From Escherichia phage vB_EcoM_DE16, in the sequence record OP595145.1: DNA of 64,000 nucleotides. One strand, given 5' to 3'. The notes under the pieces are model-generated. The model made no database searches. It was given only the letters and a program-made list of their open reading frames with translations, and was not told the DNA's origin. The translations under genes and the position numbers were made by a program. Below, one piece after another: positions 26,745-39,870 of this stretch; positions within the stretch are counted from its first letter, which is position 1, and each line of letters opens with the position of its first letter.

Positions 26745-29700
26745 ATGGCAACATTCCCAACATATCCAGCAACGTCTCTCGAACAGGGCGTAGACCTGGT
26801 TATTTTCTCATCTAACCAACTCCATGATGTTATTAATGGAAGTGCTACAGAGAGTATTGAAACAGAATCAGGGTTGATACCAACCCTGAGAAAAGCCCTT
26901 GTTGACAACTTTTTCTTTAAAAGCCCATTGGATTGGGCGCAAGGCACAAACGAAACAGTTTTTAACCAACTTCGTTATTTCCAGAATGGAGTATTGAGCG
27001 GTTATTACTATGCCCCTAACGCTACATTGGTTAACCCAATCCCTATGCAAGGGACTCCAGTAGGAGATAACAACTGGGTATTGTGGGGACTGAAAACAGA
27101 ACAATTAGCAACAGAAGTCACCCCGTGGGTATACTCTGGTGCAACGGGTTATGAAACAGTAATTAGTCCTCCTTACATCTTTGATAGTGCTATTGTTACG
27201 ATCAATGGTGTTATTCAGGTTCTGGGGGAAGCTTTCCGTATAGAAGATAGTAAGATCATCTTATCTGAACCTTTGGGACACGATCCTGCAACAGGACTAC
27301 CAAACAAGCTTTTTGCTTATATTGGTAAAATCGTAGCTTCAGCAGATACAGATCCTAATCTAGAGAACCGTCTTGTTAGTTTAGAAACAAAAACGGAAGA
27401 ACTAACAGAAAGCATGGATAAAGTCCCTCTGCAAACTATTGCTCGTAAATATGGTTTGTTAGATGATGAGGTGGCTTACGCAACAGCAGGTCAATCGTTA
27501 ACAGGGATTAAAGCTCTGTATGATCCAGTAGCACAGTCTTCCTACACATTACCTCCTAACATCACAGGAACTTTAACATCCTTGTCTGTTTCTGGAGTAA
27601 TGACTTATTCTGGGGGGTCTGTAGATCTTTCTGCACTAGCTGTTGAACGTGGACAGTTTGTTCATTTGCCTACAAGCTTTGGTAATAACGTAACTCTGAC
27701 AGCTAAAAATCAGACGATTGGACGTGGTGCTGGTCGTTATCGTTGGGCTGGAAGTTTACCAAAAAGTATTTTGGCTTCTGATACATTGGAGACAAGCGGT
27801 GGATTAGGTCCAAATGCATGGGTTCTGACCAATACAGAAGGACTGTTAACCCCTCGTGGTGGAACATACAACGATTTATTCGATGTTGTCTACTTGTCAG
27901 AATTTGCTAACAACACAACAACATATACCACACCAGAAGCAGCTTTCCAAGCGGCACTGTTAGCAGCAAAAGCTTCGAAAAGCAAGATTCTCGATGCTTA
28001 CGGTTGCGATATGACTTTCACGACAAGCTCTTTTGATATTCAAGGTATCACTTTGCGTGGGGGTGTGTTCCGTGGTCAACGCGACTATCGTGTGCAAAAT
28101 GCTACAGTAGAAGGCACAACTTTCCGTAACTCTCGTGTTATGTATTGGGGTGGTGCTGTGCGCATGTTCGATTGTTTGTGGGACGGTGCTCCTCGCGCAG
28201 GTCAAGTTGGTAGCTTGGTATTCCAAGGCAACCCAATATCAGGTACTTTTGAAATTGATAATTGTACTTTTAAAAACGGGTTATACGGCATCCTTCAACA
28301 AGGAACAGGGGAACCAGTAACACGTGGTGTCTTCCGTAACCTTACCTTCATGGACATGCAAGGTGATGCAATAGAACTGAACGTCATCAATAAACATTAT
28401 GACGATGGTTGTGTGATTGAGAATATTTACCTGTCTAATATCGATGGAACTAATGCTCCTATTCCTCTGTCCAACTGGGGTATCGGTATTGGTGTAGCTG
28501 GTAAAGGACCATATGGTTACGGAATCCCTGATGATCAATATTGTAAGAATATTACAATTCGTAACGTTTTTGCAAAACGTTGCCGTCAGATTGTCCACGT
28601 AGAAGTTGGTCGTAATATCTCTATCGAAAACATTCATGGCGATCCAGACCAGACTGTATCTGTTGGGACAGGTTTGGCAACTGGCGCAGTTGTAATGTAT
28701 GGAAGTAAAGATTTTACGATTGATGGTGTTTATGGAGAGCCTAAAACAGACGGTAGCACACTTGCAAGTAATATCCGTATGATTTATTTGGAGTGGGGAA
28801 CTAACGCAGTTCTGGACGAAGAGGGTAATCCGGTAGTTCCGGCACAGGGCAGACCTTCAAATCCATGCTTTAACTATTCTGTTCGTAACATTCACACCAA
28901 AACTGGGCGTGTTTTTGCGGGAGTTTCCGCTGGGCCAGGTTATGAAAACAGAGTTAGCTTTGAAAATATTCGTTGCGCTGCATTGCAGTTGTTCGGTATA
29001 GCTTCTTGGCTTTCAATGTCTAACATCACCTGTAATATCTTCGATTGTGTTGGTCAACCTGAATCTGGTCCAGGGACATTTTATGATGGATTCTTCCGTA
29101 GAGAAAAATCTGTTCTTGAAATGGTTAACGTAAACTGTTACCCAGATGGCAAGACGATGGTTACTGGTCGTCCACAGTGGAGCCGTTGCCGTTACTCGGA
29201 TATTCATCGTGTCAACTGTAATGTTGAAGCTAATATGTATACCAATATCGCAGGTGGTATTGGAGCTATTGTAGGGACAACGGGCAAAGTTTATTACTTA
29301 GAGCCTAATCCTAGTCGAAACATTGATGGAATGCATTTCCCAACAGGGAAAGAGTTTGACAAAGGGGATATGATAGTCAAGGCGGATAATACGTTCTTCC
29401 TTGTAACAACAAGTGGGGCATATATTCCAGATATCCCAGCTTTCGGTATTCGAGCTACACAGGCAGGAGATACCTTCCTGACACAGAACTTGACTCCTAA
29501 CGGGACAGCAACAAATGCTTCTTGGTTGTATCATTACCCTCTGTCAGCAGGGACACGTATCCGTATTCCTGGTGCTGGTGTAGGTGGAGCAGATTTGGAC
29601 ACAGTTATTACTCGTGCACCTTATCAAGATAATGATACGTGGACTAACCCAGTTAAAATAGACATTGCAGATCCAATTGTAACGCCTACAAGTGCTGGAG

Positions 29701-29798
29701 TTAGAATTAAAACCATACCTAATGATTCCAGTAATGTTTCTGTAGGTAATACTGCGGTTATTCGCCCAACGCCAGTAGTAGATGTGCCAACAACCTAA
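26745..29798 (+). CDS. large tailspike with beta-helix-like domain (possible polysaccharide depolymerase)
   Basis: 1017 aa; central region shows beta-helix-like repeats (NITIRNVFAKRCRQIVHVEVGRNISIENIHG); contains the module shared with the 22113 ORF. Confidence 0.5.
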   Translation: MATFPTYPATSLEQGVDLVIFSSNQLHDVINGSATESIETESGLIPTLRKALVDNFFFKSPLDWAQGTNETVFNQLRYFQNGVLSGYYYAPNATLVNPIPMQGTPVGDNNWVLWGLKTEQLATEVTPWVYSGATGYETVISPPYIFDSAIVTINGVIQVLGEAFRIEDSKIILSEPLGHDPATGLPNKLFAYIGKIVASADTDPNLENRLVSLETKTEELTESMDKVPLQTIARKYGLLDDEVAYATAGQSLTGIKALYDPVAQSSYTLPPNITGTLTSLSVSGVMTYSGGSVDLSALAVERGQFVHLPTSFGNNVTLTAKNQTIGRGAGRYRWAGSLPKSILASDTLETSGGLGPNAWVLTNTEGLLTPRGGTYNDLFDVVYLSEFANNTTTYTTPEAAFQAALLAAKASKSKILDAYGCDMTFTTSSFDIQGITLRGGVFRGQRDYRVQNATVEGTTFRNSRVMYWGGAVRMFDCLWDGAPRAGQVGSLVFQGNPISGTFEIDNCTFKNGLYGILQQGTGEPVTRGVFRNLTFMDMQGDAIELNVINKHYDDGCVIENIYLSNIDGTNAPIPLSNWGIGIGVAGKGPYGYGIPDDQYCKNITIRNVFAKRCRQIVHVEVGRNISIENIHGDPDQTVSVGTGLATGAVVMYGSKDFTIDGVYGEPKTDGSTLASNIRMIYLEWGTNAVLDEEGNPVVPAQGRPSNPCFNYSVRNIHTKTGRVFAGVSAGPGYENRVSFENIRCAALQLFGIASWLSMSNITCNIFDCVGQPESGPGTFYDGFFRREKSVLEMVNVNCYPDGKTMVTGRPQWSRCRYSDIHRVNCNVEANMYTNIAGGIGAIVGTTGKVYYLEPNPSRNIDGMHFPTGKEFDKGDMIVKADNTFFLVTTSGAYIPDIPAFGIRATQAGDTFLTQNLTPNGTATNASWLYHYPLSAGTRIRIPGAGVGGADLDTVITRAPYQDNDTWTNPVKIDIADPIVTPTSAGVRIKTIPNDSSNVSVGNTAVIRPTPVVDVPTT

Positions 29799-29859: not shown

Positions 29860-31884
29860 ATGAATTTAACAAGACCTAATAGTGCGATAGCCGATCTGGT
29901 AGAAGCTACTTATCGAAAACGTCGCAGCTTTGAGGCAGGTTTTACATTACGTAATTCCCGTGAAGTTTTGCTGTTAGCAGCAGAAGGGAATTATTACCAA
30001 TGGAAAGGAACTTTTCCTAAAGTTGTTCCAGCAAACTCTACGCCAGCCACCACAGGTGGTATTTCTTCCCTTGCATGGCAAAGTGTTGGGACCGCTGATG
30101 ATATAGCAATTATCAATGCCAAGTTTACAGCAATGCAGCAACAGATTGATGATCTGTCGGAAACAATACCTGAAGCTGGTAAATCGGCTTATCAGATCGC
30201 ACTTGATAATGGTTTTGTTGGAACAGAAGCACAATGGCTTGCTTCTTTGAAAGGGGATACTGGTGCTCAACTTAATATTAAAGGATCATTAGCAAGCACT
30301 AGTGAACTACCATCCACAGGTAACGTTGCAGGGGATGGTTATATCGTAGGTGATGTAATCTACGCTTGGGATGGTTCTGTTTGGAAACTTATTTCTTCTC
30401 TTGGGCCAGAAGGTAAATCAGCTTACGAGGTATGGTTGGCAGATGGTAATACAGGATCTGTTTATGATTTTCTTACCTCTATAAAAGGTGATAAAGGTGA
30501 TGTTGGTCCTACAGGGCCACAGGGAGCACCTGGTGTTAACGCCAACGGTTTTGATTATCGTGGGGATTTGCCTTCTACAAGTAACTTACCACAACCTAAC
30601 TCTGAAAACGTAAGCCAAGCTTATTCTATCAATGGTAATCTTTATGTCTCTAATGGGACAGCTTGGGTCAACATGGGTAATATTGTTGGTCCTCAAGGTC
30701 CACAAGGTGAGGCAGGTAAAGACGGTCTTGATGGAACAGATGGAGATGAAGGGAAATCTGCATATCAAAGTTGGCTGGATGCTGGTAATGAAGGGACAGA
30801 AGTAGATTTTATTGCCTCACTTAAAGGTCCAAAAGGAGACAAGGGTGATCAAGGAGAGCGAGGTCCACAAGGTGAACTAGGTCCACAAGGACCAGTGGGT
30901 GCAACAGGATCAGGTTTAGAGATTATCGGGGTTCTGAACAGTGAAGCTGAACTTCCTCCTACTGGAGAAGTAGGTGATGCATATAAAATTAATAATGATT
31001 TGTATGTTTGGATTCAAGATGCTACGGAATGGATGAATGTTGGCAGTCTTGGAGGAACATCAATTACAGCTAAAGGTCATGTTCCGAACAGTGAAGCTCT
31101 CCCTGTTTATAATAACTATGGTGATGCCTATTTAACTGAAGACACTAGTAATCTTTACATCTATACCTACGATCAAGACACCAATTCCGCATCTTTTGTT
31201 GACATGGGAAGTATTAAAGGCGACAAAGGTGAAAAAGGGGATAAAGGAGATAAGGGTGATCCTGGAACAAACGGAACCAACGGTACTGATGGGACCAACG
31301 GTAAGGACGGCGCACAGTGGTTTGTAGCAACAACTAATCCAGTTGCAGGAGACGGTGTTATCAATGATTACGCTTTCAACACTACCACTGGAGCAGTGTT
31401 TAAGAAAACAGATTCTTCTACATGGACACTTATAGGAACTCTTCCTAGTATACCAGAAGCACCTCAAGACGGCTTGACGTATGGTCGTTCTGATGGGAAC
31501 TGGATCGAAATATCAGGATCAGATCCTACAGAAGCTATAACACCAACTAAAGTTACAGCAGGTTTCATGGAACTTGAAACAACTACTGCCAACTCTGGAG
31601 CATCTTGGACTCCTTCTGGAACTTCCAATATGTATGTTGTTACAGTAACTGACGCTCTGACAGTTGGAGCATGGCCTGGTGTCACTGGCTCTACAAAGCC
31701 TAAAGCGTTTTCAGCAATGATTTATTTGATTCAAGATACAACGGGACACACGGTTACACTAGATGCGTCTTATGGAGCACTGAATGATACAGAAATAGCA
31801 ACTACTGCTAACGCAGTAACAATTTTGCAATTAACGTATCCTGGTGTGGGTGATATCGTGGACATGGTTGTTGTAACACGATAA
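29860..31884 (+). CDS. tail fiber protein with collagen-like Gly-X-Y repeats and phage tail-fibre repeats
   Basis: 674 aa; G-X-Y runs (KGDKGDQGERGPQGELGPQGPVGATG; KGDKGEKGDKGDKGDPGTNGTNGTDGTNGKDG) and three GKSAY...WL..GN.G...DF..S.KG repeats. Confidence 0.65.
   Translation: MNLTRPNSAIADLVEATYRKRRSFEAGFTLRNSREVLLLAAEGNYYQWKGTFPKVVPANSTPATTGGISSLAWQSVGTADDIAIINAKFTAMQQQIDDLSETIPEAGKSAYQIALDNGFVGTEAQWLASLKGDTGAQLNIKGSLASTSELPSTGNVAGDGYIVGDVIYAWDGSVWKLISSLGPEGKSAYEVWLADGNTGSVYDFLTSIKGDKGDVGPTGPQGAPGVNANGFDYRGDLPSTSNLPQPNSENVSQAYSINGNLYVSNGTAWVNMGNIVGPQGPQGEAGKDGLDGTDGDEGKSAYQSWLDAGNEGTEVDFIASLKGPKGDKGDQGERGPQGELGPQGPVGATGSGLEIIGVLNSEAELPPTGEVGDAYKINNDLYVWIQDATEWMNVGSLGGTSITAKGHVPNSEALPVYNNYGDAYLTEDTSNLYIYTYDQDTNSASFVDMGSIKGDKGEKGDKGDKGDPGTNGTNGTDGTNGKDGAQWFVATTNPVAGDGVINDYAFNTTTGAVFKKTDSSTWTLIGTLPSIPEAPQDGLTYGRSDGNWIEISGSDPTEAITPTKVTAGFMELETTTANSGASWTPSGTSNMYVVTVTDALTVGAWPGVTGSTKPKAFSAMIYLIQDTTGHTVTLDASYGALNDTEIATTANAVTILQLTYPGVGDIVDMVVVTR
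30470..31320 (+). repeat. coding collagen-like (G-X-Y)n segments inside the tail fiber gene
   Basis: Four separate Gly-X-Y blocks in the translated sequence; boundaries approximate. Confidence 0.6.
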
Positions 31885-31886
31885 CA

Positions 31887-31912
31887 GAAGCCCCGAAAGG
31901 GGCTTTCTTTTT
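31887..31912 (+). terminator. rho-independent terminator after collagen-like fiber gene
   Basis: AGCCCC-GAAA-GGGGCT followed by TTCTTTTT. Confidence 0.7.
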
Positions 31913-31925
31913 ATGGAGGGTTTAA

Positions 31926-34598
31926 ATGTTTCCAATTCCAATATTTACTATTATGACCAGCACTGGTGTCGTTCCTCTGCCAGCAGGTATTGTTAAAAAA
32001 GTAATTACTTTAGATTACCCAGATAACGCTGGTAATTCTAACAGCAGTTTAGCAATTTTGCTTAATGATGGTAGATTGTTTACTCAAGGCGCAAACCTCT
32101 TTGGTGAGATTGCAGATGGAACTCGTAGTGCACGATTCAATAATTTCCACTTAGCTTCTACTGTAGTAGCAGATGTGTTTACCGCAGATCGTTGTTTTGT
32201 TATTAAAACTAACAGTGGGGGATGGCAATATTCAGGATTGACAGCAGGGTTGGTAGGATCTATAGCAGCAGGTGGTACGGATGCATGTGTAACTACTTGG
32301 ACCAGCTTTCCATCTGTAATAACAGGGACTATTTCTTTAGCCAATCTTAAAGAGGTTAAAGGAGGGTATAACAATACTCTCTGGTTAATGAATAGTGGTG
32401 TTCTTTATGGATCGGGTCAAAACACAGTAGGCAGTTTAGGTGCAAGCACTACTAACGAAGTTTCTACTCCTCGTCAGATAACAAGCGCAGCAGTTGCTTT
32501 TGATGCAGGTTACAACCAATGCTCTTATGTCAACAATGTGGGAACCTTGCGTGTTTGTGGAGCTAGTAAAGGTTTAGCAGGTAATAATAACACAACAACC
32601 GCTTTTGTCAATGCCAAGATATCCACTACTGAAACAGTGTATGTCAAAGATTACATCAATACAGTTTCCCAGACAATAGTTGTAGGAGATACCTCCGGTG
32701 GTACGGGTACGGTAAACTACTTATATGTTAGGTCTAATACAGAAACAACCTACACTAAACTGGACACCTTTGCAGCAGGTTTCTCAACATGGAAGTTTCC
32801 ACCAAGCCGCCACTCTTTTTTCGTTGGGATCAATAATTCCTTGTGGGCTATTGGTAAGAACTACACTGCAAACTTAGGTTTGGGGTATGATTCTGCGAGC
32901 GGAGATCCGCTTCAAGTGGGAAAACCAGTTAAACCTGAAGGAGTGGGTTCCTGGGATATAAACAAGCTCACAAGCGTTCATACGCTGAATATGGATGTTA
33001 CTAACCAATTAGGTTATCAAGGAACCTTTTTCGTTTATAACGGGGATATGTATTATTCCGGTATTTGGAAAGATGGGAAAGCCTCGTATCTGTTCAATAG
33101 TGGTTTAAACTATAATAAATTCACACCAATAGCAAGCTCTGTGATTACAGGGGATGTGCTGGCAACTAGCTTAACTACAGATTCTTTAGGAATTTGTATT
33201 GTAGGTGGAACTAAACAGTTGACGCATTCTGTTAGCCCAGAAGGAGGTAAACTTTTCAATATTAAATACACTTCTTCTGCCCCTGCAAACATGACAATAT
33301 CATCTACTGGTTTAATGACTTTCCATGCAGAAGGTGGTTTTGATGCAGGTATGACAGCCTTAAACGCTGAAGGAACAACTTTATCAGATACCTCTGGAGG
33401 ATATGCTTCAACATTAAGTGTTTACACCCCTAGCTTATCTGCGATGGATGTAGGAACAACACAAACAATGGTAGCAGAAATAACGCCAACAGGGGCAGCA
33501 AGCTTACCTGGTATGGTTGTTGAGTATACAACTACAGATCCTAATGTTGCTACAGTAGATCCTACAACTGGTGTAATAACTGGTGTTGGTGATGGTGGTT
33601 GTAGAATTGGTTGCACAGCTACGTATCAAGGTGTTGTTACCGCTTCTGATAGTTCTTATTTAACGGTGAACGCTGTTGCGGGAAAGGAGTTAGCTCCATC
33701 TCCGAGTAGTAGTTTAACGGTTCTAAACGGATATTTCAACCACTCGGCAGATGGGGCAATCACGTTCCCAATTTTATCGGGTACTGTCACACCAGCTAAC
33801 TTTGTAGTTAAGGTGGATGACGTTGTAATACCTTCAAATAAAGTAATATTTAGAAATAAAGCTTTCTCTACAGTGGATAGTTATCCAGCAGGAGAATATA
33901 GACTGGCTATTGAATTTGCAAGTGCTTCAGTAGTGAATAGTGTTGATGTGTCTATGGAAGCAAATCCAGATCTTTTAGAATTATGGGGCGGCAACAGAAT
34001 TGGTTATTCTACAAGCCCAGCCTCACAATTCTTAAAAGGTTGTGCTAACTTAAGACGAATAACTTCTGATTGTTTTAGTAACACATCTTACACCGGAACA
34101 TCTATAAGTGGTATCTTCTCTGGCTGTACAAGTTTGACAGCTATCCCTGAAGGATTATTCAGTGATGCTTTATTTCCTTCAATGACAACAATGTCAAGCA
34201 CGTTTGAAGGTTGTACATCTTTAACATCTATTCCTTCAGATTTATTTAAGAATCTGTCAAAAGTTACAAGATATTCTTACACCTTTAAAGATTGCACCTC
34301 TCTTGCAGAAGTTCCAGCAGGAATGTTTGATAATATTCCAACGAAAGTGACCTCTTTAACAGCTACATTCCAAGGTTGTTTAGCACTTACAGATTTTAAT
34401 AAAATCTTTAATGACAATCCAGGGTTAACTGTTTGTGGTAAACGTGGATCATTATCTTCTTTCTTTAGTGGATGCACAAATCTTACAGGAACAGGAACAA
34501 CATTAACAAATACATTAGGCGGAGTAGCTAATAGTTACCTATTCAGGTATTGCACAAAACTTTCTGATTATAATAATATTCCTTCGGGTTATAAATAA
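31926..34598 (+). CDS. multidomain tail-associated protein: RCC1-like repeats + Big_2 Ig-like domain + BspA-type leucine-rich repeats
   Basis: 890 aa; RCC1-like stretches (NSLWAIGKNYTANLGLG, SGVLYGSGQNTVGSLG); Big_2-like TTTDPNVATVDPTTGVITGVGDGGCRIGCTATYQG; C-terminal repeats FSGCTSLTAIPEGLF / FEGCTSLTSIPSDLF / FKDCTSLAEVPAGMF. Confidence 0.55.
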   Translation: MFPIPIFTIMTSTGVVPLPAGIVKKVITLDYPDNAGNSNSSLAILLNDGRLFTQGANLFGEIADGTRSARFNNFHLASTVVADVFTADRCFVIKTNSGGWQYSGLTAGLVGSIAAGGTDACVTTWTSFPSVITGTISLANLKEVKGGYNNTLWLMNSGVLYGSGQNTVGSLGASTTNEVSTPRQITSAAVAFDAGYNQCSYVNNVGTLRVCGASKGLAGNNNTTTAFVNAKISTTETVYVKDYINTVSQTIVVGDTSGGTGTVNYLYVRSNTETTYTKLDTFAAGFSTWKFPPSRHSFFVGINNSLWAIGKNYTANLGLGYDSASGDPLQVGKPVKPEGVGSWDINKLTSVHTLNMDVTNQLGYQGTFFVYNGDMYYSGIWKDGKASYLFNSGLNYNKFTPIASSVITGDVLATSLTTDSLGICIVGGTKQLTHSVSPEGGKLFNIKYTSSAPANMTISSTGLMTFHAEGGFDAGMTALNAEGTTLSDTSGGYASTLSVYTPSLSAMDVGTTQTMVAEITPTGAASLPGMVVEYTTTDPNVATVDPTTGVITGVGDGGCRIGCTATYQGVVTASDSSYLTVNAVAGKELAPSPSSSLTVLNGYFNHSADGAITFPILSGTVTPANFVVKVDDVVIPSNKVIFRNKAFSTVDSYPAGEYRLAIEFASASVVNSVDVSMEANPDLLELWGGNRIGYSTSPASQFLKGCANLRRITSDCFSNTSYTGTSISGIFSGCTSLTAIPEGLFSDALFPSMTTMSSTFEGCTSLTSIPSDLFKNLSKVTRYSYTFKDCTSLAEVPAGMFDNIPTKVTSLTATFQGCLALTDFNKIFNDNPGLTVCGKRGSLSSFFSGCTNLTGTGTTLTNTLGGVANSYLFRYCTKLSDYNNIPSGYK

Positions 34599-34599
34599 G

Positions 34600-34628
34600 A
34601 AAAGGAGCCATTTGGCTCCTTTCTTTTA
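34600..34628. terminator. bidirectional terminator at convergence of plus and minus transcription units
   Basis: GGAGCC-ATTT-GGCTCC hairpin flanked by A-run on one side and T-run on the other, between the stops of the 31926 (+) and 34663 (-) genes. Confidence 0.6.
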
Positions 34629-34662
34629 TTCAGCATTCAACCTCACACACTTGAAACAAACC

Positions 34663-35595
34663 TTAGAAGCAATGCAGGAAGTTTCGACCATATTGCAGTC
34701 CAATAGGAGCAAATGGAATATCATCGTCGAAGTCCATTGGAGGTTCTTCTTGATTACTTGGAGTTGGTTCTGGTTGTGGTTCAGGCTTCTTAACTTCTTT
34801 CTTCTCTTCTTTCTTAGGTTGTTCTGCGGAACCACGAATGGCAGCAGCAACTTTATCAGACAGAGCCAGAACTTTACGAGCAGAGTCAATCAGATCTTCT
34901 ACAGATACAGTCTTAATGGTATGGTCTTTACAAGCATTGAGAATAGCGTGACCAACAGATGCCCCAAGATCATAATCATTAATATCAACGCCACGAGATT
35001 CAGCAATTTCCGATTTCAGCGTGACAGTTGCAGATTGAACAACCCCAGCGATATCGAAAGCATCACCTTTAACACCATTACGAATCAGTTCCAGTGCACC
35101 ATTTACTGCGTGACCAGTTTCCAGACCTACAGTATCACGTTTTTTATAGGACTGCTTAGGAGCAGCATCGTTGGAACCTTTATTGCCAGAAGATTTGTTA
35201 GACTTCTGAACACCATCGGTAGACAATACTGTAATACGAGATTTTTTAGTATTGTAGTAAGTTTTACCGCCTTTATTATCAACGCGATCAATATCAATAC
35301 TTACTTCTACACCTTTTTCAATAGTGATCCAATTATCACCTTCTTTGACTTGCAGGTTTTCATAACCTTCTTTCAGTTCAATGTCACCAAGAGAAATCCA
35401 AACACCTTTCTCATCTGGTTTAGCACCTTTCTCTTTCAGAACAAGAGAAGCTCGGTGAGTTGAAACAATCGTTTTTCCTTCCCAATGAAAAGTTTTAGGT
35501 TCAGCGAATTTATCCAGTTTAACGTAGTCTACGATACCAGTTGCATAAGTTACGGTTTTGCCTTTACGATCAGTTTCAGTATTAATTACGGACAT
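34663..35595 (-). CDS. single-stranded DNA-binding protein-like, carrying an E. coli SSB-type acidic tip motif
   Basis: 310 aa; RBS GAGGAG; acidic/proline-rich tail with PPMDFDDDIPF followed by 15 more residues; N-terminal beta-rich region. Confidence 0.45.
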   Translation of the reverse strand: MSVINTETDRKGKTVTYATGIVDYVKLDKFAEPKTFHWEGKTIVSTHRASLVLKEKGAKPDEKGVWISLGDIELKEGYENLQVKEGDNWITIEKGVEVSIDIDRVDNKGGKTYYNTKKSRITVLSTDGVQKSNKSSGNKGSNDAAPKQSYKKRDTVGLETGHAVNGALELIRNGVKGDAFDIAGVVQSATVTLKSEIAESRGVDINDYDLGASVGHAILNACKDHTIKTVSVEDLIDSARKVLALSDKVAAAIRGSAEQPKKEEKKEVKKPEPQPEPTPSNQEEPPMDFDDDIPFAPIGLQYGRNFLHCF

Positions 35596-37272: not shown

Positions 37273-39870
37273 TCAATGACAGGATGCCCAGGAATTACCC
37301 ACATCATATCCGGCAGTAAGCTGAACATTAAGATTGTAAAATTCTCCAGCCTTAGTAACAGCTAAGGCAGCAAGTTCACCTGCCCGACTATAGGCTGTAA
37401 ACCATCCACCTTTGGGAGATTCATGAATGTTAGCCCAAATTTGCCCTGTCTCTTTTTCCTTATTATGCTTCCATTCTTCGACTTTAGCAAGGCATTCTTT
37501 ATCAATTTTCTTTTGTTCTTCAGGATCGTCTACTTTCTTCCAACCTAATGATTCAGGTGAAAACCATTTGAATTCTACAAGGTTACGAGAAACTTCAAGC
37601 TGGGCTTCATCGTGGTATGCAATCATTTGTTGCACGAAGTCTTTATTCTTCCAATCATCTTTAAAGAAGTCAACACTTAGTCCTTCTTCTTCGATCATGT
37701 CGTCATAAATAACCATTGCACGTTTAGCACAGATAACCCCACCACTTTGGAACAGAGAGTTAAGAATCGCGTGAGCAGAACGAGTAGGAACCTTACGACC
37801 GTCAATACCCAAAACATATTGTTTACCAGTCTTAACCCAGAAATCGTTTAAACGTTCTTTAAGACGCGCCAATGGGAATGCAGCTTCCCAGAAAGCATCG
37901 AACACCAATTGACCTGTAAACTTATCGCTACCAATTGTTTTAGCAACCTTGTCGGCTTGTGCACCATAGGTAATACCATACTTAACAGATTTAGCAGGAC
38001 TACGTTCAAATTTACGTCCAATAGTTTCAGTGATACGTTTTGCCATCATTGTGTGAACATCATTAGGTTTCTCTAACAACAGGGCGTTACAATACTCGTG
38101 TGGCTCCGGCTCGTACCGCCAACAGTAGTGTGATTCAATTTTTGCTTCCAAAGAGTCGAAGTCGTAGCCGATCTGGAAGTATTTAGGAACCTCCACACCA
38201 AACAAGTTACGCATCTCCCATCCAAACAAAGATGTGACACGAGGAATATTAGCTACAGACCTATGCTTCATACGCGAGGTTGCAGCATCACATGTAGCGG
38301 CTGGGGTAGGAATACGCCCATCCGCCCTTACTGCGGCTAAGAAACCTTTATCGTATTCTTGATCTTCTTCATCTTCTTCCCAATCAGCACCGCCACCTAA
38401 AATAGAGTTCCTACGATGTTTATACGTTAAGTATTCTACAATCTGTGTAGCATAAGGGAATTTCTCACCCAAAGCTTGCAGGTTAGGACAGATTTCTTTT
38501 TCCTGACCTTTGGTAAAGCATGGGTTAGTCAATACTTTAAGACCGCGACCTTTACCTTTTGCTATACGCTCTTGAATCTTCCTTTCCAAAGTTTCCGGTG
38601 TGCACTCCAGATGATCACAACGATCCTGACAAAAATTAGAAGATAGAGTTTGCTCAACGTAAGCTCGAATACCTTTCTGAAGTTCTTCCTCGCTCTTTTT
38701 AATCTTGGTGCCAGATTTAAGAGTCAAGTCTTTATCTTTATATTCAGACGGTACCCAACCTAATCCTACAAGCCAGTTTTTAATATGGGTAGTATCGTTC
38801 AATGTTGCAGGGATGTTAGGATCACACAAAGGCTCATCTGCTGCAACTGGCAGTTTCCACTCTTTCCCCAACATCACTAACCACCAATCTCCATCCCTCT
38901 CTTCCAAATGACCATCATGTTTCTTAGCAAAATTGATCATATGGTTAGTTGGCTCTAAGTTCTTTTTAATTTGCAACTTAGGTGGAATAAAAGCCTTAAG
39001 ATAACCTTTTGTTGCTGGTTTAGGTGGCAAAATAGGCTCAACGAGTAAACGAAGACGCTCCATTTCTGCATCCAAAAAAGCAAGGTTCTCTTCTGCTTGC
39101 TTCATGTTAAAAGCAAACCCACGGTGTTCCTGGCGTGTAATAATGTCTGCTACACGTTGTTCAAGTTCAAATGGACCTTCCCATTTATCATAATCACCCC
39201 ATTCTTCCATAAGGTAATTATATACGCTCGTATTGGCTTTGTTGTCATAGATACAGTAATAAAGCATATCAGCAGCAAAAGTCTTAAATCGATCTTCTTC
39301 TGGAATCTCTTTACGGAAATCTATTTTTACATCACCCCCTGCCTTTCGAGAAAGTGCTGCCAAACTATGTCCTGATTTGCCTTCAATCTTTCGATCTGGG
39401 TTTAACACTTTACTCAAAATCAAGGAGTCAATAAGTTTTACCTTATTTTTGCCCCACGTATTATATTTAACACTGTAATCTAAGCCATAAAACAGTTTTG
39501 TAGCCAACCAGTCATAGTTGATACCGTTGTGAGCCACAGCCATTTCAACCAGATATTCAGGCTTATCTTTAAAATAACCTTCATGATTAATAAAGTCTGG
39601 GAAATCTTTTAGTTGAAAATGTGTGTAATCTTGCGCCACATACTCTTTAAGAACATATGTGTATTTACCATCTGACTCTTCATAAGGACGCCCATCAAAG
39701 ATGTATTTAGGGCCATCGTGGAAAGCTACTATTTCTCCTGTTTCATGGTTCTCTAAGACAATACAGTGCATTTGAAATGTGTCTTTGAGACGATAAGGAC
39801 TAGCTAAATAATCGATAGTGTCATTATTCAACAATCCGTTTGCTTCAATATCCCATGTAAACTTACTCAC
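37273..39870 (-). CDS. DNA polymerase, family A, with 3'-5' exonuclease domain
   Basis: 865 aa; exonuclease motif DIEANGL; motif B-like KSVKYGITYGAQ; motif C YHDE; GTG start after AAGGAGG. Confidence 0.85.
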   Translation of the reverse strand: MSKFTWDIEANGLLNNDTIDYLASPYRLKDTFQMHCIVLENHETGEIVAFHDGPKYIFDGRPYEESDGKYTYVLKEYVAQDYTHFQLKDFPDFINHEGYFKDKPEYLVEMAVAHNGINYDWLATKLFYGLDYSVKYNTWGKNKVKLIDSLILSKVLNPDRKIEGKSGHSLAALSRKAGGDVKIDFRKEIPEEDRFKTFAADMLYYCIYDNKANTSVYNYLMEEWGDYDKWEGPFELEQRVADIITRQEHRGFAFNMKQAEENLAFLDAEMERLRLLVEPILPPKPATKGYLKAFIPPKLQIKKNLEPTNHMINFAKKHDGHLEERDGDWWLVMLGKEWKLPVAADEPLCDPNIPATLNDTTHIKNWLVGLGWVPSEYKDKDLTLKSGTKIKKSEEELQKGIRAYVEQTLSSNFCQDRCDHLECTPETLERKIQERIAKGKGRGLKVLTNPCFTKGQEKEICPNLQALGEKFPYATQIVEYLTYKHRRNSILGGGADWEEDEEDQEYDKGFLAAVRADGRIPTPAATCDAATSRMKHRSVANIPRVTSLFGWEMRNLFGVEVPKYFQIGYDFDSLEAKIESHYCWRYEPEPHEYCNALLLEKPNDVHTMMAKRITETIGRKFERSPAKSVKYGITYGAQADKVAKTIGSDKFTGQLVFDAFWEAAFPLARLKERLNDFWVKTGKQYVLGIDGRKVPTRSAHAILNSLFQSGGVICAKRAMVIYDDMIEEEGLSVDFFKDDWKNKDFVQQMIAYHDEAQLEVSRNLVEFKWFSPESLGWKKVDDPEEQKKIDKECLAKVEEWKHNKEKETGQIWANIHESPKGGWFTAYSRAGELAALAVTKAGEFYNLNVQLTAGYDVGNSWASCH

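What the first reader, a model, noticed from the sequence alone, without database searches (positions are those of the whole stretch)
31926..34598. RCC1-repeat + Big_2 + BspA-type LRR protein ending the tail fiber locus
The 890-aa protein combines RCC1-like propeller repeats, an Ig-like Big_2 domain and BspA-type leucine-rich repeats. This architecture is typical of bacterial and eukaryotic surface or adhesion proteins and is unusual for a phage structural operon; it may be a receptor-binding protein or a surface-exposed decoration.
Basis: seen in the sequence. Interest (0 to 1): 0.6.

Follow-up and report, generated by a model that had tools for sequence, protein, structure and literature searches.

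The report
Modular phage tail adhesin, swappable tip
The last gene of this coliphage's tail-fibre cluster encodes a bead-on-a-string tail protein (propeller, two Ig domains, leucine-rich-repeat tip) whose tip is swapped between near-identical phages, so it is most likely an ordinary, uncharacterised host-recognition protein.

Summary
The ORF is real (31926-34598, +, 890 aa). The window is a Phapecoctavirus (phAPEC8/ESCO5-like, about 98% nucleotide identity). The gene is ESCO5 gp226 'tail protein', PHROG 11922, and 'TfpM1' in a 2025 paper.

All three domain calls hold:
- A 7-bladed RCC1-like propeller: Pfam RCC1 above threshold; Foldseek UVR8/HERC2/RCC1, E 7e-14.
- Two Ig domains, with Big_2 above threshold.
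- A seven-repeat 'F-x-G-C-x-x-L' solenoid. Its own LRR_5 and DUF285 scores are sub-threshold, but its sequence relatives are LRR_5/DUF285 surface proteins.

New findings:
- Residues 1-585 are conserved, but after the junction SSYLxVNA the tip is exchanged among at least four unrelated cassettes, or is absent.
- One alternative cassette is homologous to solved tail-fibre and GTA head-spike tips.
- A conserved N-terminal peptide (MFPIPxF) is shared with the Justusliebigvirus counterpart, which lacks the propeller. The propeller therefore looks like an inserted module.
- rV5 gp27, which shares the peptide and the start of the propeller, was detected in virions by mass spectrometry.

Best reading: a virion-borne accessory adhesin or lateral tail-fibre component with an exchangeable receptor-binding tip. 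The architecture is not unusual for phages. The receptor, oligomeric state and attachment site are unknown. Modest interest.

The parts
31887..31906 (+). Terminator-like G+C-rich hairpin followed by a T-run, lying between the upstream 674-aa tail fibre gene (ends 31884) and this gene
   Evidence: (8-bp stem, 5 G-C pairs, tail CTTTTTAT). Function not tested.
31915..31919 (+). Shine-Dalgarno-like GGAGG, 6 nt before the ATG
   Evidence: Read directly from the sequence.
31926..34598 (+). CDS of the 890-aa tail protein (ESCO5 gp226; PHROG 11922; 'TfpM1')
   Evidence: PMC12695924.
31926..31991 (+). Conserved N-terminal peptide (res 1-22, MFPIPIFTIMTSTGVVPLPAGI); proposed virion-attachment element (inferred)
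   Evidence: M1, P3, P5, G14, P17 and G21 are invariant in 38 homologues. The same M-[FYL]-P-I-P start occurs in Justusliebigvirus bas62_0035, which lacks the propeller, and in rV5 gp27. Model confidence is low here (pLDDT 45-64).
31992..33140 (+). 7-bladed RCC1-like beta-propeller (res ~23-405)
   Evidence: Pfam RCC1 and RCC1-like domain. AF2 model. Foldseek UVR8/HERC2/RCC1, E 7e-14 to 1e-8. BFVD phage RCC1 proteins.
33153..33425 (+). Ig-like domain 1 (res ~410-500)
   Evidence: Second Big_2 stretch. PHROG 215 'structural protein with Ig domain' matches res 402-584. Beta-sandwich in the model.
33426..33680 (+). Ig-like domain 2, Big_2 (res ~501-585)
   Evidence: PF02368, 35.3 bits against a gathering score of 22.8, res 505-565. 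65% identical to the Big_2 tandem of Justusliebigvirus lateral tail fibre proteins.
33651..33677 (+). Conserved recombination junction SSYLTVNAV (res 576-584), after which homologues diverge into unrelated tips or end
   Evidence: P0008-10 are 100% identical to the window up to res ~510 and unrelated after res ~585. The short forms stop at this motif.
33693..33995 (+). Beta-sandwich domain of the type-A tip cassette (res ~590-690)
   Evidence: AF2 models (pLDDT 87-95). No family assignment. Only insignificant Foldseek similarity to phage tail and neck Ig-like domains.
34011..34595 (+). LRR_5/DUF285 (BspA/PARCEL)-like solenoid: seven F-x-G-C-x-x-L repeats starting at res 703, 731, 760, 787, 815, 847 and 873
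34600..34623 (.). Bidirectional terminator-like hairpin at the convergence of the tail-fibre (+) and replication (-) modules

Best explanation
The gene encodes a virion-borne accessory host-adhesion protein, that is, a lateral tail-fibre or tail-decoration component of the multivalent adsorption apparatus of phAPEC8-like myoviruses. It is built as a string of autonomous beta-rich domains.

Proposed mechanism (inferred):
- A short conserved N-terminal peptide (MFPIPxF...PLPxG) docks the protein onto the baseplate or fibre network.
- The RCC1-type propeller and the two Ig domains form a conserved body and spacer. The propeller may itself bind a ligand.
- The C-terminal cassette is the exchangeable receptor-binding tip. 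In this window it is a beta-sandwich plus a BspA/DUF285-type leucine-rich-repeat solenoid. I expect it to bind a bacterial surface structure through the repeat face and so to contribute to host range.
- Recombination at the conserved junction SSYLxVNA swaps this tip for unrelated ones in sister phages.

Shown here: the domains, the mosaic structure, the synteny, the homology of an alternative tip to solved fibre tips, and detection of a distant relative in rV5 virions.

Inferred: virion location of this particular protein, the role of the N-terminal peptide, the binding function of the LRR tip, and the nature of the receptor.
For: 1. Position. It is always the last gene of the + strand tail-fibre module. 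It lies after two proteins with Tail_spike_N branching domains, a short fibre and its chaperone. This holds in the window, ESCO5, metagenomic relatives, Justusliebigvirus and rV5.
2. Family. The full length matches PHROG 11922 'tail protein' at 1347 bits.
3. Mosaicism typical of receptor-binding proteins.
   - P0008-10 are 100% identical to the window through res ~510 and unrelated after res 585.
   - P0004-7 show the opposite pattern: 60-86% identity in the N-terminal part and 90-96% in the tip.
   - At least four cassette types, plus a tipless form, follow the same SSYLxVNA junction.
   - In GenBank phages, 35 records carry the window's tip and about 39 carry the alternative tip at over 90% identity.
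4. The alternative (type-B) tip is homologous to a solved 'tail fiber protein gp17' (9occ, E 2e-20) and to the RcGTA head-spike fibre (6tb9, E 3e-14). The same slot therefore carries a bona fide fibre tip in sister phages.
5. A third cassette is a canonical DUF285 domain (145.6 bits), related to the window's repeats (hhalign E 3e-5, probability 73%).
6. rV5 gp27 (1878 aa) shares the MxPIP start and ~40% identity over res 1-195. It was detected in rV5 particles by mass spectrometry, including a peptide from its propeller-like region (PMC3606486, supplementary file 5).
7. The BASEL authors annotate the syntenic Justusliebigvirus protein as a lateral tail fibre protein.
8. The two phiWec groups differ in this cassette: phiWec179 carries type B and phiWec190 carries type A. 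They are reported to depend on different secondary host factors (PMC12695924). Other fibres also differ between the groups, so this is only a correlation.
Against: - There is no direct evidence that this protein is in phAPEC8-like virions. No Phapecoctavirus virion proteome was found in the searchable literature.
- rV5 gp27 had only 3.1% coverage, and the homology is limited to the N-terminal ~195 residues.
- The protein lacks the hallmarks of classical trimeric fibres: no coiled coil, no triple beta-helix, no Tail_spike_N domain.
- The model is a monomer. The oligomeric state could not be tested.
- Tipless forms of ~570 aa exist with no downstream same-strand gene. The tip is therefore dispensable, and the conserved body must have a function of its own.
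- Cryo-EM of related Vequintavirinae phages resolved only three of nine annotated fibres and did not place this protein (PMC12143355).
- The LRR tip has no significant solved structural neighbour, and its ligand is unknown.
Confidence: 0.6

Rival explanations
1. It is a non-essential virion decoration that adheres to the environment rather than to the bacterial receptor. In this reading it is a Hoc-like 'sticky' protein whose Ig and LRR domains bind mucus, other glycans or animal-host proteins, keeping particles where hosts live.
For: - The bead-on-a-string model of propeller, Ig, Ig, sandwich and LRR looks monomeric and has no trimerisation motif.
- Big_2 domains are typical of phage decoration proteins (PHROG 215 is labelled 'head and packaging').
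- The closest sequence relatives of the tip sit in bacterial surface proteins with Mfa-like fimbrillin, BACON and Listeria-Bacteroides repeat domains.
- Tipless variants exist.
- The type-B tip is also homologous to a GTA head spike.
Against: - The gene is embedded in the baseplate and tail-fibre module, not in the head module.
- Cassette exchange between 98-100% identical backbones is the pattern expected for host-range determinants.
- The type-B tip's best solved match is a tail fibre.
- Nothing here distinguishes binding to bacteria from binding to other surfaces.
Confidence: 0.2
2. The conserved body is the functional part. The RCC1 propeller would be the ligand-binding or enzymatic module, for example binding or modifying a surface glycan. 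The C-terminal cassettes would be optional add-ons, giving a two-headed adhesin anchored through its centre or its N-terminal peptide.
For: - The propeller plus Ig tandem is conserved from Phapecoctavirus to Seunavirus-like Salmonella phages. It persists in ~570-aa forms with no tip and no downstream partner gene.
- Compared with the Justusliebigvirus counterpart, the propeller is an insertion between the N-terminal peptide and the Ig tandem. In that protein, other domains occupy the middle.
Against: - No catalytic family was detected in the propeller.
- RCC1-type propellers are generic protein or ligand-binding scaffolds, so the fold gives no functional clue.
- This reading is compatible with, rather than exclusive of, the best explanation.
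Confidence: 0.12
3. It is not a virion component. It would be an intracellular or secreted phage protein (many phage RCC1 proteins are annotated 'DNA condensation protein') that merely happens to be encoded at the end of the structural module.
For: - Several phage RCC1-like proteins are annotated as regulators of chromosome condensation or DNA condensation proteins (PHROGs 4219, 16766 and 7220; BFVD hits).
- A terminator-like hairpin separates the gene from the upstream fibre gene.
Against: - Those annotations are name transfers from eukaryotic RCC1, not tested functions.
- The synteny, the Ig domains, the fibre-tip cassette in sister alleles and the rV5 gp27 peptides found in virions all point to a structural protein.
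Confidence: 0.05

Closest known systems
Justusliebigvirus (phi92-like) lateral tail fibre protein, e.g. JohannJBalmer bas62_0035 (942 aa)
   Same: - Syntenic last gene of the tail-fibre locus.
- Same N-terminal peptide (MYPIPLF...).
- Big_2 tandem 65% identical.
- Carries the type-B tip at 91% identity to Phapecoctavirus type-B alleles.
   Different: - It has no RCC1 propeller; the Ig tandem follows the N-terminal peptide directly.
- About 440 aa of other domains (annotated 'glycosidase') lie between the Ig tandem and the tip.
- It has no LRR tip.
Escherichia phage rV5 gp27 (1878 aa, Big_2-containing structural protein; Vequintavirus)
   Same: - Same position at the end of the tail-fibre locus.
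- MLPIP start and an RCC1-like N-terminal region ~40% identical over res 1-195.
- Contains Big_2.
- Detected in virions by MS.
   Different: It is twice as long, and the remainder is unrelated in sequence. No LRR tip was detected.
BspA-type (Pfam LRR_5) and DUF285/PARCEL-repeat bacterial surface proteins; solved examples 4fs7, 4gt6, TpLRR 6mlx
   Same: - 26-29 residue repeats with the F-x-G-C-x-x-L-t-x-I-P core.
- Relatives of the window's tip score above threshold for LRR_5 and DUF285.
- A family profile hits 4fs7, 4gt6 and 6mlx.
   Different: - The window sequence is itself below the gathering score of both families.
- There are only seven repeats, the last three irregular.
- It is fused to a phage tail-protein body instead of bacterial fimbrillin-like, BACON or lipoprotein modules.
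- Foldseek finds no significant solved neighbour.
RCC1-superfamily 7-bladed propellers (RCC1, UVR8, HERC2 RLD, RPGR)
   Same: Same fold: TM 0.64-0.71 normalised by target length, E down to 7e-14. RCC1 repeat motif of the G-x-N-x-x-G-x-L-G type at res 164-172.
   Different: Sequence identity is only 12-17%. No GEF or photoreceptor function is implied. Here the propeller is a module in a phage tail protein.
Modular receptor-binding proteins with conserved N-terminal anchor and exchangeable C-terminal tip (general principle; e.g. the T7-type gp17 fibre represented by PDB 9occ)
   Same: Conserved N-terminal two-thirds, a sharp junction, and unrelated tips in near-identical phages. One alternative tip is homologous to the gp17 C-terminal region.
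   Different: The body is a propeller plus Ig string rather than a trimeric coiled-coil or beta-helical shaft. Trimerisation is not evident.

Membership tests
RCC1 superfamily (Pfam RCC1 PF00415 / RCC1-like domain PF25390) | At least one RCC1 repeat scoring above the Pfam gathering score | tested here: met
   PF00415 scores 23.9 bits against a gathering score of 21.7, res 158-188. Homologue P0012 scores 29.7 bits.
RCC1 superfamily (Pfam RCC1 PF00415 / RCC1-like domain PF25390) | Whole-domain model PF25390 above its gathering score (150 bits) | tested here: not met
   42.1 bits, E 9e-11, partial match to profile positions 101-285. It is a divergent member.
RCC1 superfamily (Pfam RCC1 PF00415 / RCC1-like domain PF25390) | Seven-bladed beta-propeller fold superposable on RCC1-type structures | tested here: met
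   In the AF2 model (pLDDT mostly 85-95 in res 23-330), Foldseek hits UVR8, HERC2, HERC1, RPGR and RCC1 with E 7e-14 to 1e-8 and TM up to 0.71. This rests on a predicted structure, not a solved one.
Big_2 bacterial Ig-like domain (PF02368) | Score above the Pfam gathering score, and an Ig-like beta-sandwich | tested here: met
   35.3 bits against a gathering score of 22.8, two stretches. Two sandwiches in the model at res 410-585. LigA Ig-like hit (rank 46).
BspA-type LRR (Pfam LRR_5 PF13306) | Score above the Pfam gathering score (27.7 bits) | tested here: not met
   No hit at E<=1 with the full protein. 17.1 bits, E 0.0055, with the C-terminal 315 aa alone.
BspA-type LRR (Pfam LRR_5 PF13306) | Homology to proteins that are themselves LRR_5 members or solved LRR_5 structures | tested here: met
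   12 of 20 members of the tip-family alignment hit LRR_5 (best 1.2e-19). The family profile hits 4fs7 (3.4e-13), 4gt6 (3.4e-12) and TpLRR 6mlx (2.9e-4). P0107 scores 55.1 bits for LRR_5.
DUF285 (PF03382) / PARCEL repeat (TIGR02167) | Score above the curated cut-off (25 bits / 30 bits) | tested here: not met
   DUF285 scores 13.5-17.1 bits. TIGR02167 scores 17.4 bits.
DUF285 (PF03382) / PARCEL repeat (TIGR02167) | Profile-level homology to canonical DUF285 domains | tested here: inconclusive
   hhalign of the type-A tip against the canonical DUF285 tip of sister alleles gives probability 73% and E 3e-5 over 63 columns. 9 of 20 family members hit DUF285 (best 3.6e-39).
Leucine-rich-repeat fold | Curved solenoid of repeats superposable on solved LRR proteins | tested here: inconclusive
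Phage receptor-binding / tail-fibre proteins | Encoded in the tail-fibre module and conserved in synteny among relatives | tested here: met
Phage receptor-binding / tail-fibre proteins | Conserved N-terminal part with an exchangeable C-terminal domain among close relatives | tested here: met
Phage receptor-binding / tail-fibre proteins | Physical presence in the virion | not testable with these tools
   The evidence is indirect only: rV5 gp27 peptides in virion MS. No Phapecoctavirus proteome was found.
Phage receptor-binding / tail-fibre proteins | Binding to a host receptor, or an effect on host range | not testable with these tools
   There is only a confounded correlation in the phiWec phages.
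Phage receptor-binding / tail-fibre proteins | Homotrimeric fibre or spike architecture | not tested
   No multimer prediction was available. The monomer model shows no coiled coil or triple beta-helix, and Pfam finds no Tail_spike_N domain, unlike the two upstream genes.

The most novel reading that the evidence does not exclude
The protein would be a new class of non-trimeric, two-ended phage adhesin, with these features:
- A short conserved N-terminal peptide plugs it into the baseplate or fibre network.
- An RCC1 propeller, inserted relative to phi92-like phages, provides a second binding site.
- A BspA/DUF285-type leucine-rich-repeat tip, a fold otherwise used by Bacteroidota, Treponema and Listeria surface proteins, recognises a proteinaceous or glycan receptor on E. 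coli.

LRR solenoids would then be an unrecognised, widely exchanged type of phage receptor-binding tip. They are also seen in Klebsiella P2-like phages, in Erwinia jumbo phages and on ~100-kb metagenomic phage-like contigs.
Probability: 0.2. Interest if true: 0.55.

Novelty: new member of a known kind. Interest (0 to 1): 0.33.

Why it matters
phAPEC8-like and phi92-like phages are being developed for therapy because of their broad host range. The literature states that it is unclear which genes make which fibres (BASEL paper; RBPseg cryo-EM placed only 3 of 9 annotated fibres).

This analysis supplies three things that can be used directly:
- a precise domain map of the protein;
- a defined recombination junction, SSYLxVNA;
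- a catalogue of interchangeable tips: LRR-type, gp17/GTA-spike-type, canonical DUF285, other, and none.

Together they give a concrete handle for host-range engineering, and a testable candidate for the differing secondary host-factor requirements reported for the phiWec groups. They also flag BspA/DUF285-type LRR modules as a possible receptor-binding fold in phages.

The gene itself is already deposited many times and annotated as a tail protein. The gain is therefore incremental, not conceptual.

Tried and rejected
- Direct Pfam and NCBIfam assignment of the tip. LRR_5, DUF285 and PARCEL are all sub-threshold. The label therefore had to be established through relatives.
- Literature searches for RCC1 in phage receptor-binding proteins or in Phapecoctavirus returned nothing. 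The search for a Phapecoctavirus virion proteome found nothing usable. The PVP-SE1 and phi92 proteomic and structural papers are not held. This matters because PVP-SE1 gp40, a 36%-identical homologue, may have MS data I could not read.
- The idea that the tipless ~570-aa forms have their tip encoded as a separate downstream gene was rejected. The next gene is on the opposite strand.
- The idea that the type-A and type-B tips are divergent versions of one domain was rejected (hhalign probability 0.1%).
- I looked for the MFPIP motif on other proteins in the window, as a hint of a shared docking mode. It occurs only on this gene.
- Per-position variability of the LRR repeats among 11 type-A sequences showed no clear hypervariable face.
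- The phiTE cryo-EM paper, checked for a placement of homologous proteins, gave nothing relevant.
Full report
**1. The observation**

An uninterrupted ORF runs from 31926 to 34598 on the + strand (ATG start, 890 aa). A GGAGG lies 6 nt upstream. A G+C-rich hairpin with a T-run (31887-31906) precedes the gene. A bidirectional hairpin (34600-34623) follows it directly, and after that all genes are on the minus strand (SSB, nucleotidyltransferase, DNA polymerase and so on). GC skew changes sign at the same place. The gene does end the tail-fibre locus.

**2. What genome this is**

The gene is 95-99% identical in nucleotides to about 60 deposited Phapecoctavirus genomes (subfamily Stephanstirmvirinae), including 536P1, ESCO5, tuntematon and Mt1B1_P17. 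There it is annotated 'tail protein' or 'hypothetical protein'. In ESCO5 it is gp226.

It matches PHROG 11922 'tail protein' over its full length (1347 bits). [quoted passage not shown]

The upstream genes are:
- a baseplate wedge subunit and a baseplate protein;
- a short tail fibre and its assembly chaperone;
- a small lipoprotein-like protein;
- a 1017-aa colanidase-like spike;
- a 674-aa collagen-containing fibre.

The last two carry the Tail_spike_N branching domain.

**3. Domains**

*RCC1 propeller.*
- Pfam gives RCC1 above its gathering score (23.9 against 21.7 bits).
- It also gives the RCC1-like domain at E 9e-11, though far below that model's whole-domain cut-off.
- An AlphaFold2 model built on 38 homologues has mean pLDDT 86.
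- Its first ~400 residues match 7-bladed RCC1-type propellers in the PDB: UVR8, HERC2, HERC1, RPGR and RCC1 (E 7e-14 to 1e-8, TM up to 0.71 on the target).

*Ig domains.* Big_2 is above threshold (35.3 against 22.8 bits). The model has two Ig-like sandwiches at ~410-500 and ~501-585.

*C-terminal third.*
- It folds confidently, both in the full model and in a separate model (pLDDT 89.9, pTM 0.87).
- It forms a beta-sandwich (~590-690) followed by a solenoid.
- The solenoid has seven repeats with the core F-x-G-C-x-x-L and a 26-32 residue period, at res 703-890.

*Assigning the solenoid.*
- Its own scores are sub-threshold: LRR_5 17.1 bits (gathering score 27.7), DUF285 13.5-17.1 (gathering score 25), PARCEL repeat TIGR02167 17.4 (cut-off 30).
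- Foldseek finds no significant solved neighbour. The best hits are LRR proteins at E 0.07-0.15.
- An exhaustive HMMER search of 1.84 billion representatives finds 14,324 relatives (787 at E<=1e-30). Most are very large multi-repeat proteins.
- Sampled relatives combine Bacteroidota-type surface modules (Mfa-like fimbrillin, BACON, Listeria-Bacteroides repeat) with DUF285, LRR_5 and LRR_8 above threshold.
- In an alignment of the tip with 15 ~300-aa relatives, 12 of 20 members hit LRR_5 (best 1e-19) and 9 of 20 hit DUF285 (best 4e-39).
- The profile of that alignment hits the solved LRR_5 proteins 4fs7 and 4gt6 (E about 3e-13 and 3e-12) and Treponema TpLRR (3e-4).

**4. Mosaic structure: the main new result**

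Among 38 homologues, residues 1-585 are conserved. After the motif SSYLxVNA (res 576-584) the sequences fall into unrelated classes:

| Type | C-terminal cassette |
|---|---|
| A | The window's sandwich plus LRR |
| B | A ~305-aa domain with the motif GNGWYRV |
| C | A PKD-like segment plus a canonical DUF285 domain (145.6 bits) |
| D | An unassigned 250-aa domain |
| E | Nothing: the protein stops at the junction (~565-610 aa) |

- P0008-P0010 are 100% identical to the window up to about residue 510 and unrelated after 585.
- P0004-P0007 show the opposite pattern: 60-86% identity in the body and 90-96% in the tip. Body and tip therefore have separate histories.
- In deposited phage genomes, type A occurs in 35 records and type B in about 39 at over 90% identity.
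- Type A and type B are not homologous (hhalign probability 0.1%). Type A and type C are weakly related (probability 73%, E 3e-5).
- Type B is homologous to a solved 'tail fiber protein gp17' (9occ, E 2e-20) and to the head-spike fibre of the Rhodobacter gene transfer agent (6tb9, E 3e-14).

The slot occupied by the LRR module in this window is thus occupied by a recognised fibre tip in sister phages.

**5. The N-terminus and the propeller as an insertion**

M1, P3, P5, G14, P17 and G21 are invariant across the family.

The syntenic last gene of the tail-fibre locus in Justusliebigvirus is JohannJBalmer bas62_0035, annotated by the BASEL authors as a lateral tail fibre protein.
- It begins MYPIPLF...
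- It continues directly into the Big_2 tandem (65% identical to the window's).
- About 440 aa of other domains follow, and then the type-B tip (91% identical to Phapecoctavirus type-B alleles).

Relative to that protein, the RCC1 propeller of the window (res ~16-412) is an inserted module.

This also qualifies the published statement that TfpM1 is absent from Justusliebigvirus. A counterpart exists, but without the propeller.

rV5 gp27 (1878 aa, Big_2) is again the last gene of the fibre locus. It starts MLPIP and is ~40% identical over res 1-195. The rV5 virion proteome lists gp27 with 3 peptides (3.1% coverage). One of them is LCNDIGAQSANNSPRANFIHYRA, which maps to the N-terminal propeller-like region (PMC3606486, supplementary file 5).

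I infer, but have not shown, that the short N-terminal peptide is the element that docks these proteins onto the particle.

**6. Is the architecture unusual for phages?**

No.
- BFVD hits include PVP-SE1 gp40 (36% identical, 604 aa), Cronobacter phage CR9, many jumbo-phage 'DNA condensation' or RCC1 proteins, and Pseudomonas phage tail fibres that combine a T7-type N-terminus with an RCC1 propeller.
- Several PHROG families are RCC1-like.
- LRR_5/DUF285-like repeats similar to the window's tip occur in a 1008-aa tail protein next to the baseplate genes of Klebsiella P2-like phages. They also occur in an Erwinia jumbo phage and in ~300-aa proteins on ~93-107-kb contigs. One such contig was inspected and is phage-like, with holin, lysozyme and Collar-domain genes.

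**7. Mechanism**

The best-supported reading is a virion-borne accessory adhesin or lateral fibre component. The conserved N-terminal two-thirds is the body, and the C-terminal cassette is the exchangeable receptor-binding tip.

Shown:
- the domains;
- the synteny;
- the mosaicism;
- the homology of an alternative tip to solved fibre tips;
- a distant relative detected in virions.

Inferred:
- the presence of this particular protein in the particle;
- docking through the N-terminal peptide;
- binding through the LRR face.

Unknown:
- the receptor;
- the stoichiometry;
- the oligomeric state.

The model looks like a monomeric string of beads and lacks trimerisation motifs. Tipless forms with no downstream partner gene exist. 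The body must therefore have a role of its own, which keeps alive two alternatives:
- a propeller-centred two-headed adhesin;
- a Hoc-like environmental 'stickiness' role.

One literature correlation fits a host-recognition role. The phiWec179 group carries type B and the phiWec188/190 group carries type A, and the two groups are reported to depend on different secondary host factors, flagella versus YhaH. It is confounded, because other fibres also differ between the groups.

**8. Comparison with the known, and novelty**

The gene is already deposited many times and annotated as a tail protein. Modular receptor-binding proteins with swappable tips are a well-known kind.

As far as the searchable literature shows, three things have not been described:
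- the specific domain map: anchor peptide, RCC1 propeller, two Ig domains, junction, and a BspA/DUF285-like LRR tip;
- the cassette catalogue;
- the propeller-as-insertion relationship to phi92-like phages.

I rate it a new member of a known kind, of modest interest.

**9. Limits**

- All structural statements rest on predicted models.
- The alignment behind the tip model has only 12 sequences.
- The PVP-SE1 and phi92 papers, which might contain direct proteomic evidence for homologues, are not held.

Noticed in passing
window ~38122-38126 (within the DNA polymerase ORF 37273..39870, minus strand); L001 18149-18878: ESCO5 carries a ~730-nt in-frame insertion in its family-A DNA polymerase gene (1110 aa annotated). 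The window lacks it: its ORF is 865 aa, like the 859-861 aa polymerases of relatives. Pfam finds no domain in the inserted segment, so an intein or a homing-endonuclease-type insertion is possible but not shown.
   Followed up: partly
window 26745-29798 and 29860-31884 (+): The two large genes upstream of the finding both carry the Tail_spike_N domain (PF18668, the CBA120 TSP1 / G7C gp66-type branching domain). The first is colanidase-like (PHROG 6117) and the second has collagen repeats. This suggests a branched spike complex like that of Ackermannviridae. The RCC1 protein lacks this domain.
   Followed up: partly
window 31887-31906 and 34600-34623: The gene is bracketed by two strong terminator-like hairpins. 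The upstream one, between the 674-aa fibre gene and this gene, could lower read-through and hence stoichiometry, or could mark a cassette boundary. This was not tested.
   Followed up: no
L005 5093-7921 (Escherichia phage JohannJBalmer bas62_0035): PMC12695924 states that TfpM1 is absent from Justusliebigvirus. However, the syntenic protein shares the N-terminal peptide, the Big_2 tandem (65% identity) and the type-B tip (91% identity). Only the RCC1 propeller is missing.
   Followed up: yes
P0011 (573 aa, 60-kb metagenome contig): This is a natural variant of the type-A protein in which both Ig domains are precisely deleted: the sequence joins ...ATSLT directly to VNAVAGKELAP.... It also starts within the propeller. 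The deletion appears to lie between short SLT repeats, which shows that the Ig spacer is dispensable in at least one assembled genome, or that the assembly is faulty.
   Followed up: no
L007 6001-6909 and proteins P0189-P0247: About 300-aa stand-alone LRR_5/DUF285-like proteins, 33-43% identical to the window's tip, are encoded on metagenomic contigs. Several of these contigs are 93-107 kb long. The one inspected looks like a phage (holin, lysozyme, Collar domain, HNH, Tad2-like).
   Followed up: partly
L006 3547-6573 (Klebsiella phage ST16-OXA48phi5.4, Peduoviridae): A 1008-aa 'tail protein' lies directly after the baseplate assembly genes of P2-like Klebsiella prophages. It contains 7-8 matches to the window's LRR repeats (32% identity), another case of this repeat type in a phage tail.
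   Followed up: partly
GenBank records listed: Several genomes 90-95% identical to this gene are labelled Campylobacter phage (B15, C9, C12, A142), Pseudomonas phage PsgM04F, or Acinetobacter phage. These host labels look doubtful for what are coliphage-type genomes.
   Followed up: no
window 34612-35463 (+) versus 34663-35595 (-): A 283-aa TTG-start ORF on the + strand overlaps almost the whole minus-strand SSB-like gene (PHROG 4477 and SSB C-terminal matches). It is most likely a shadow ORF.
   Followed up: no
whole window: ARAGORN finds no tRNA or tmRNA genes in the 64-kb window.
   Followed up: yes
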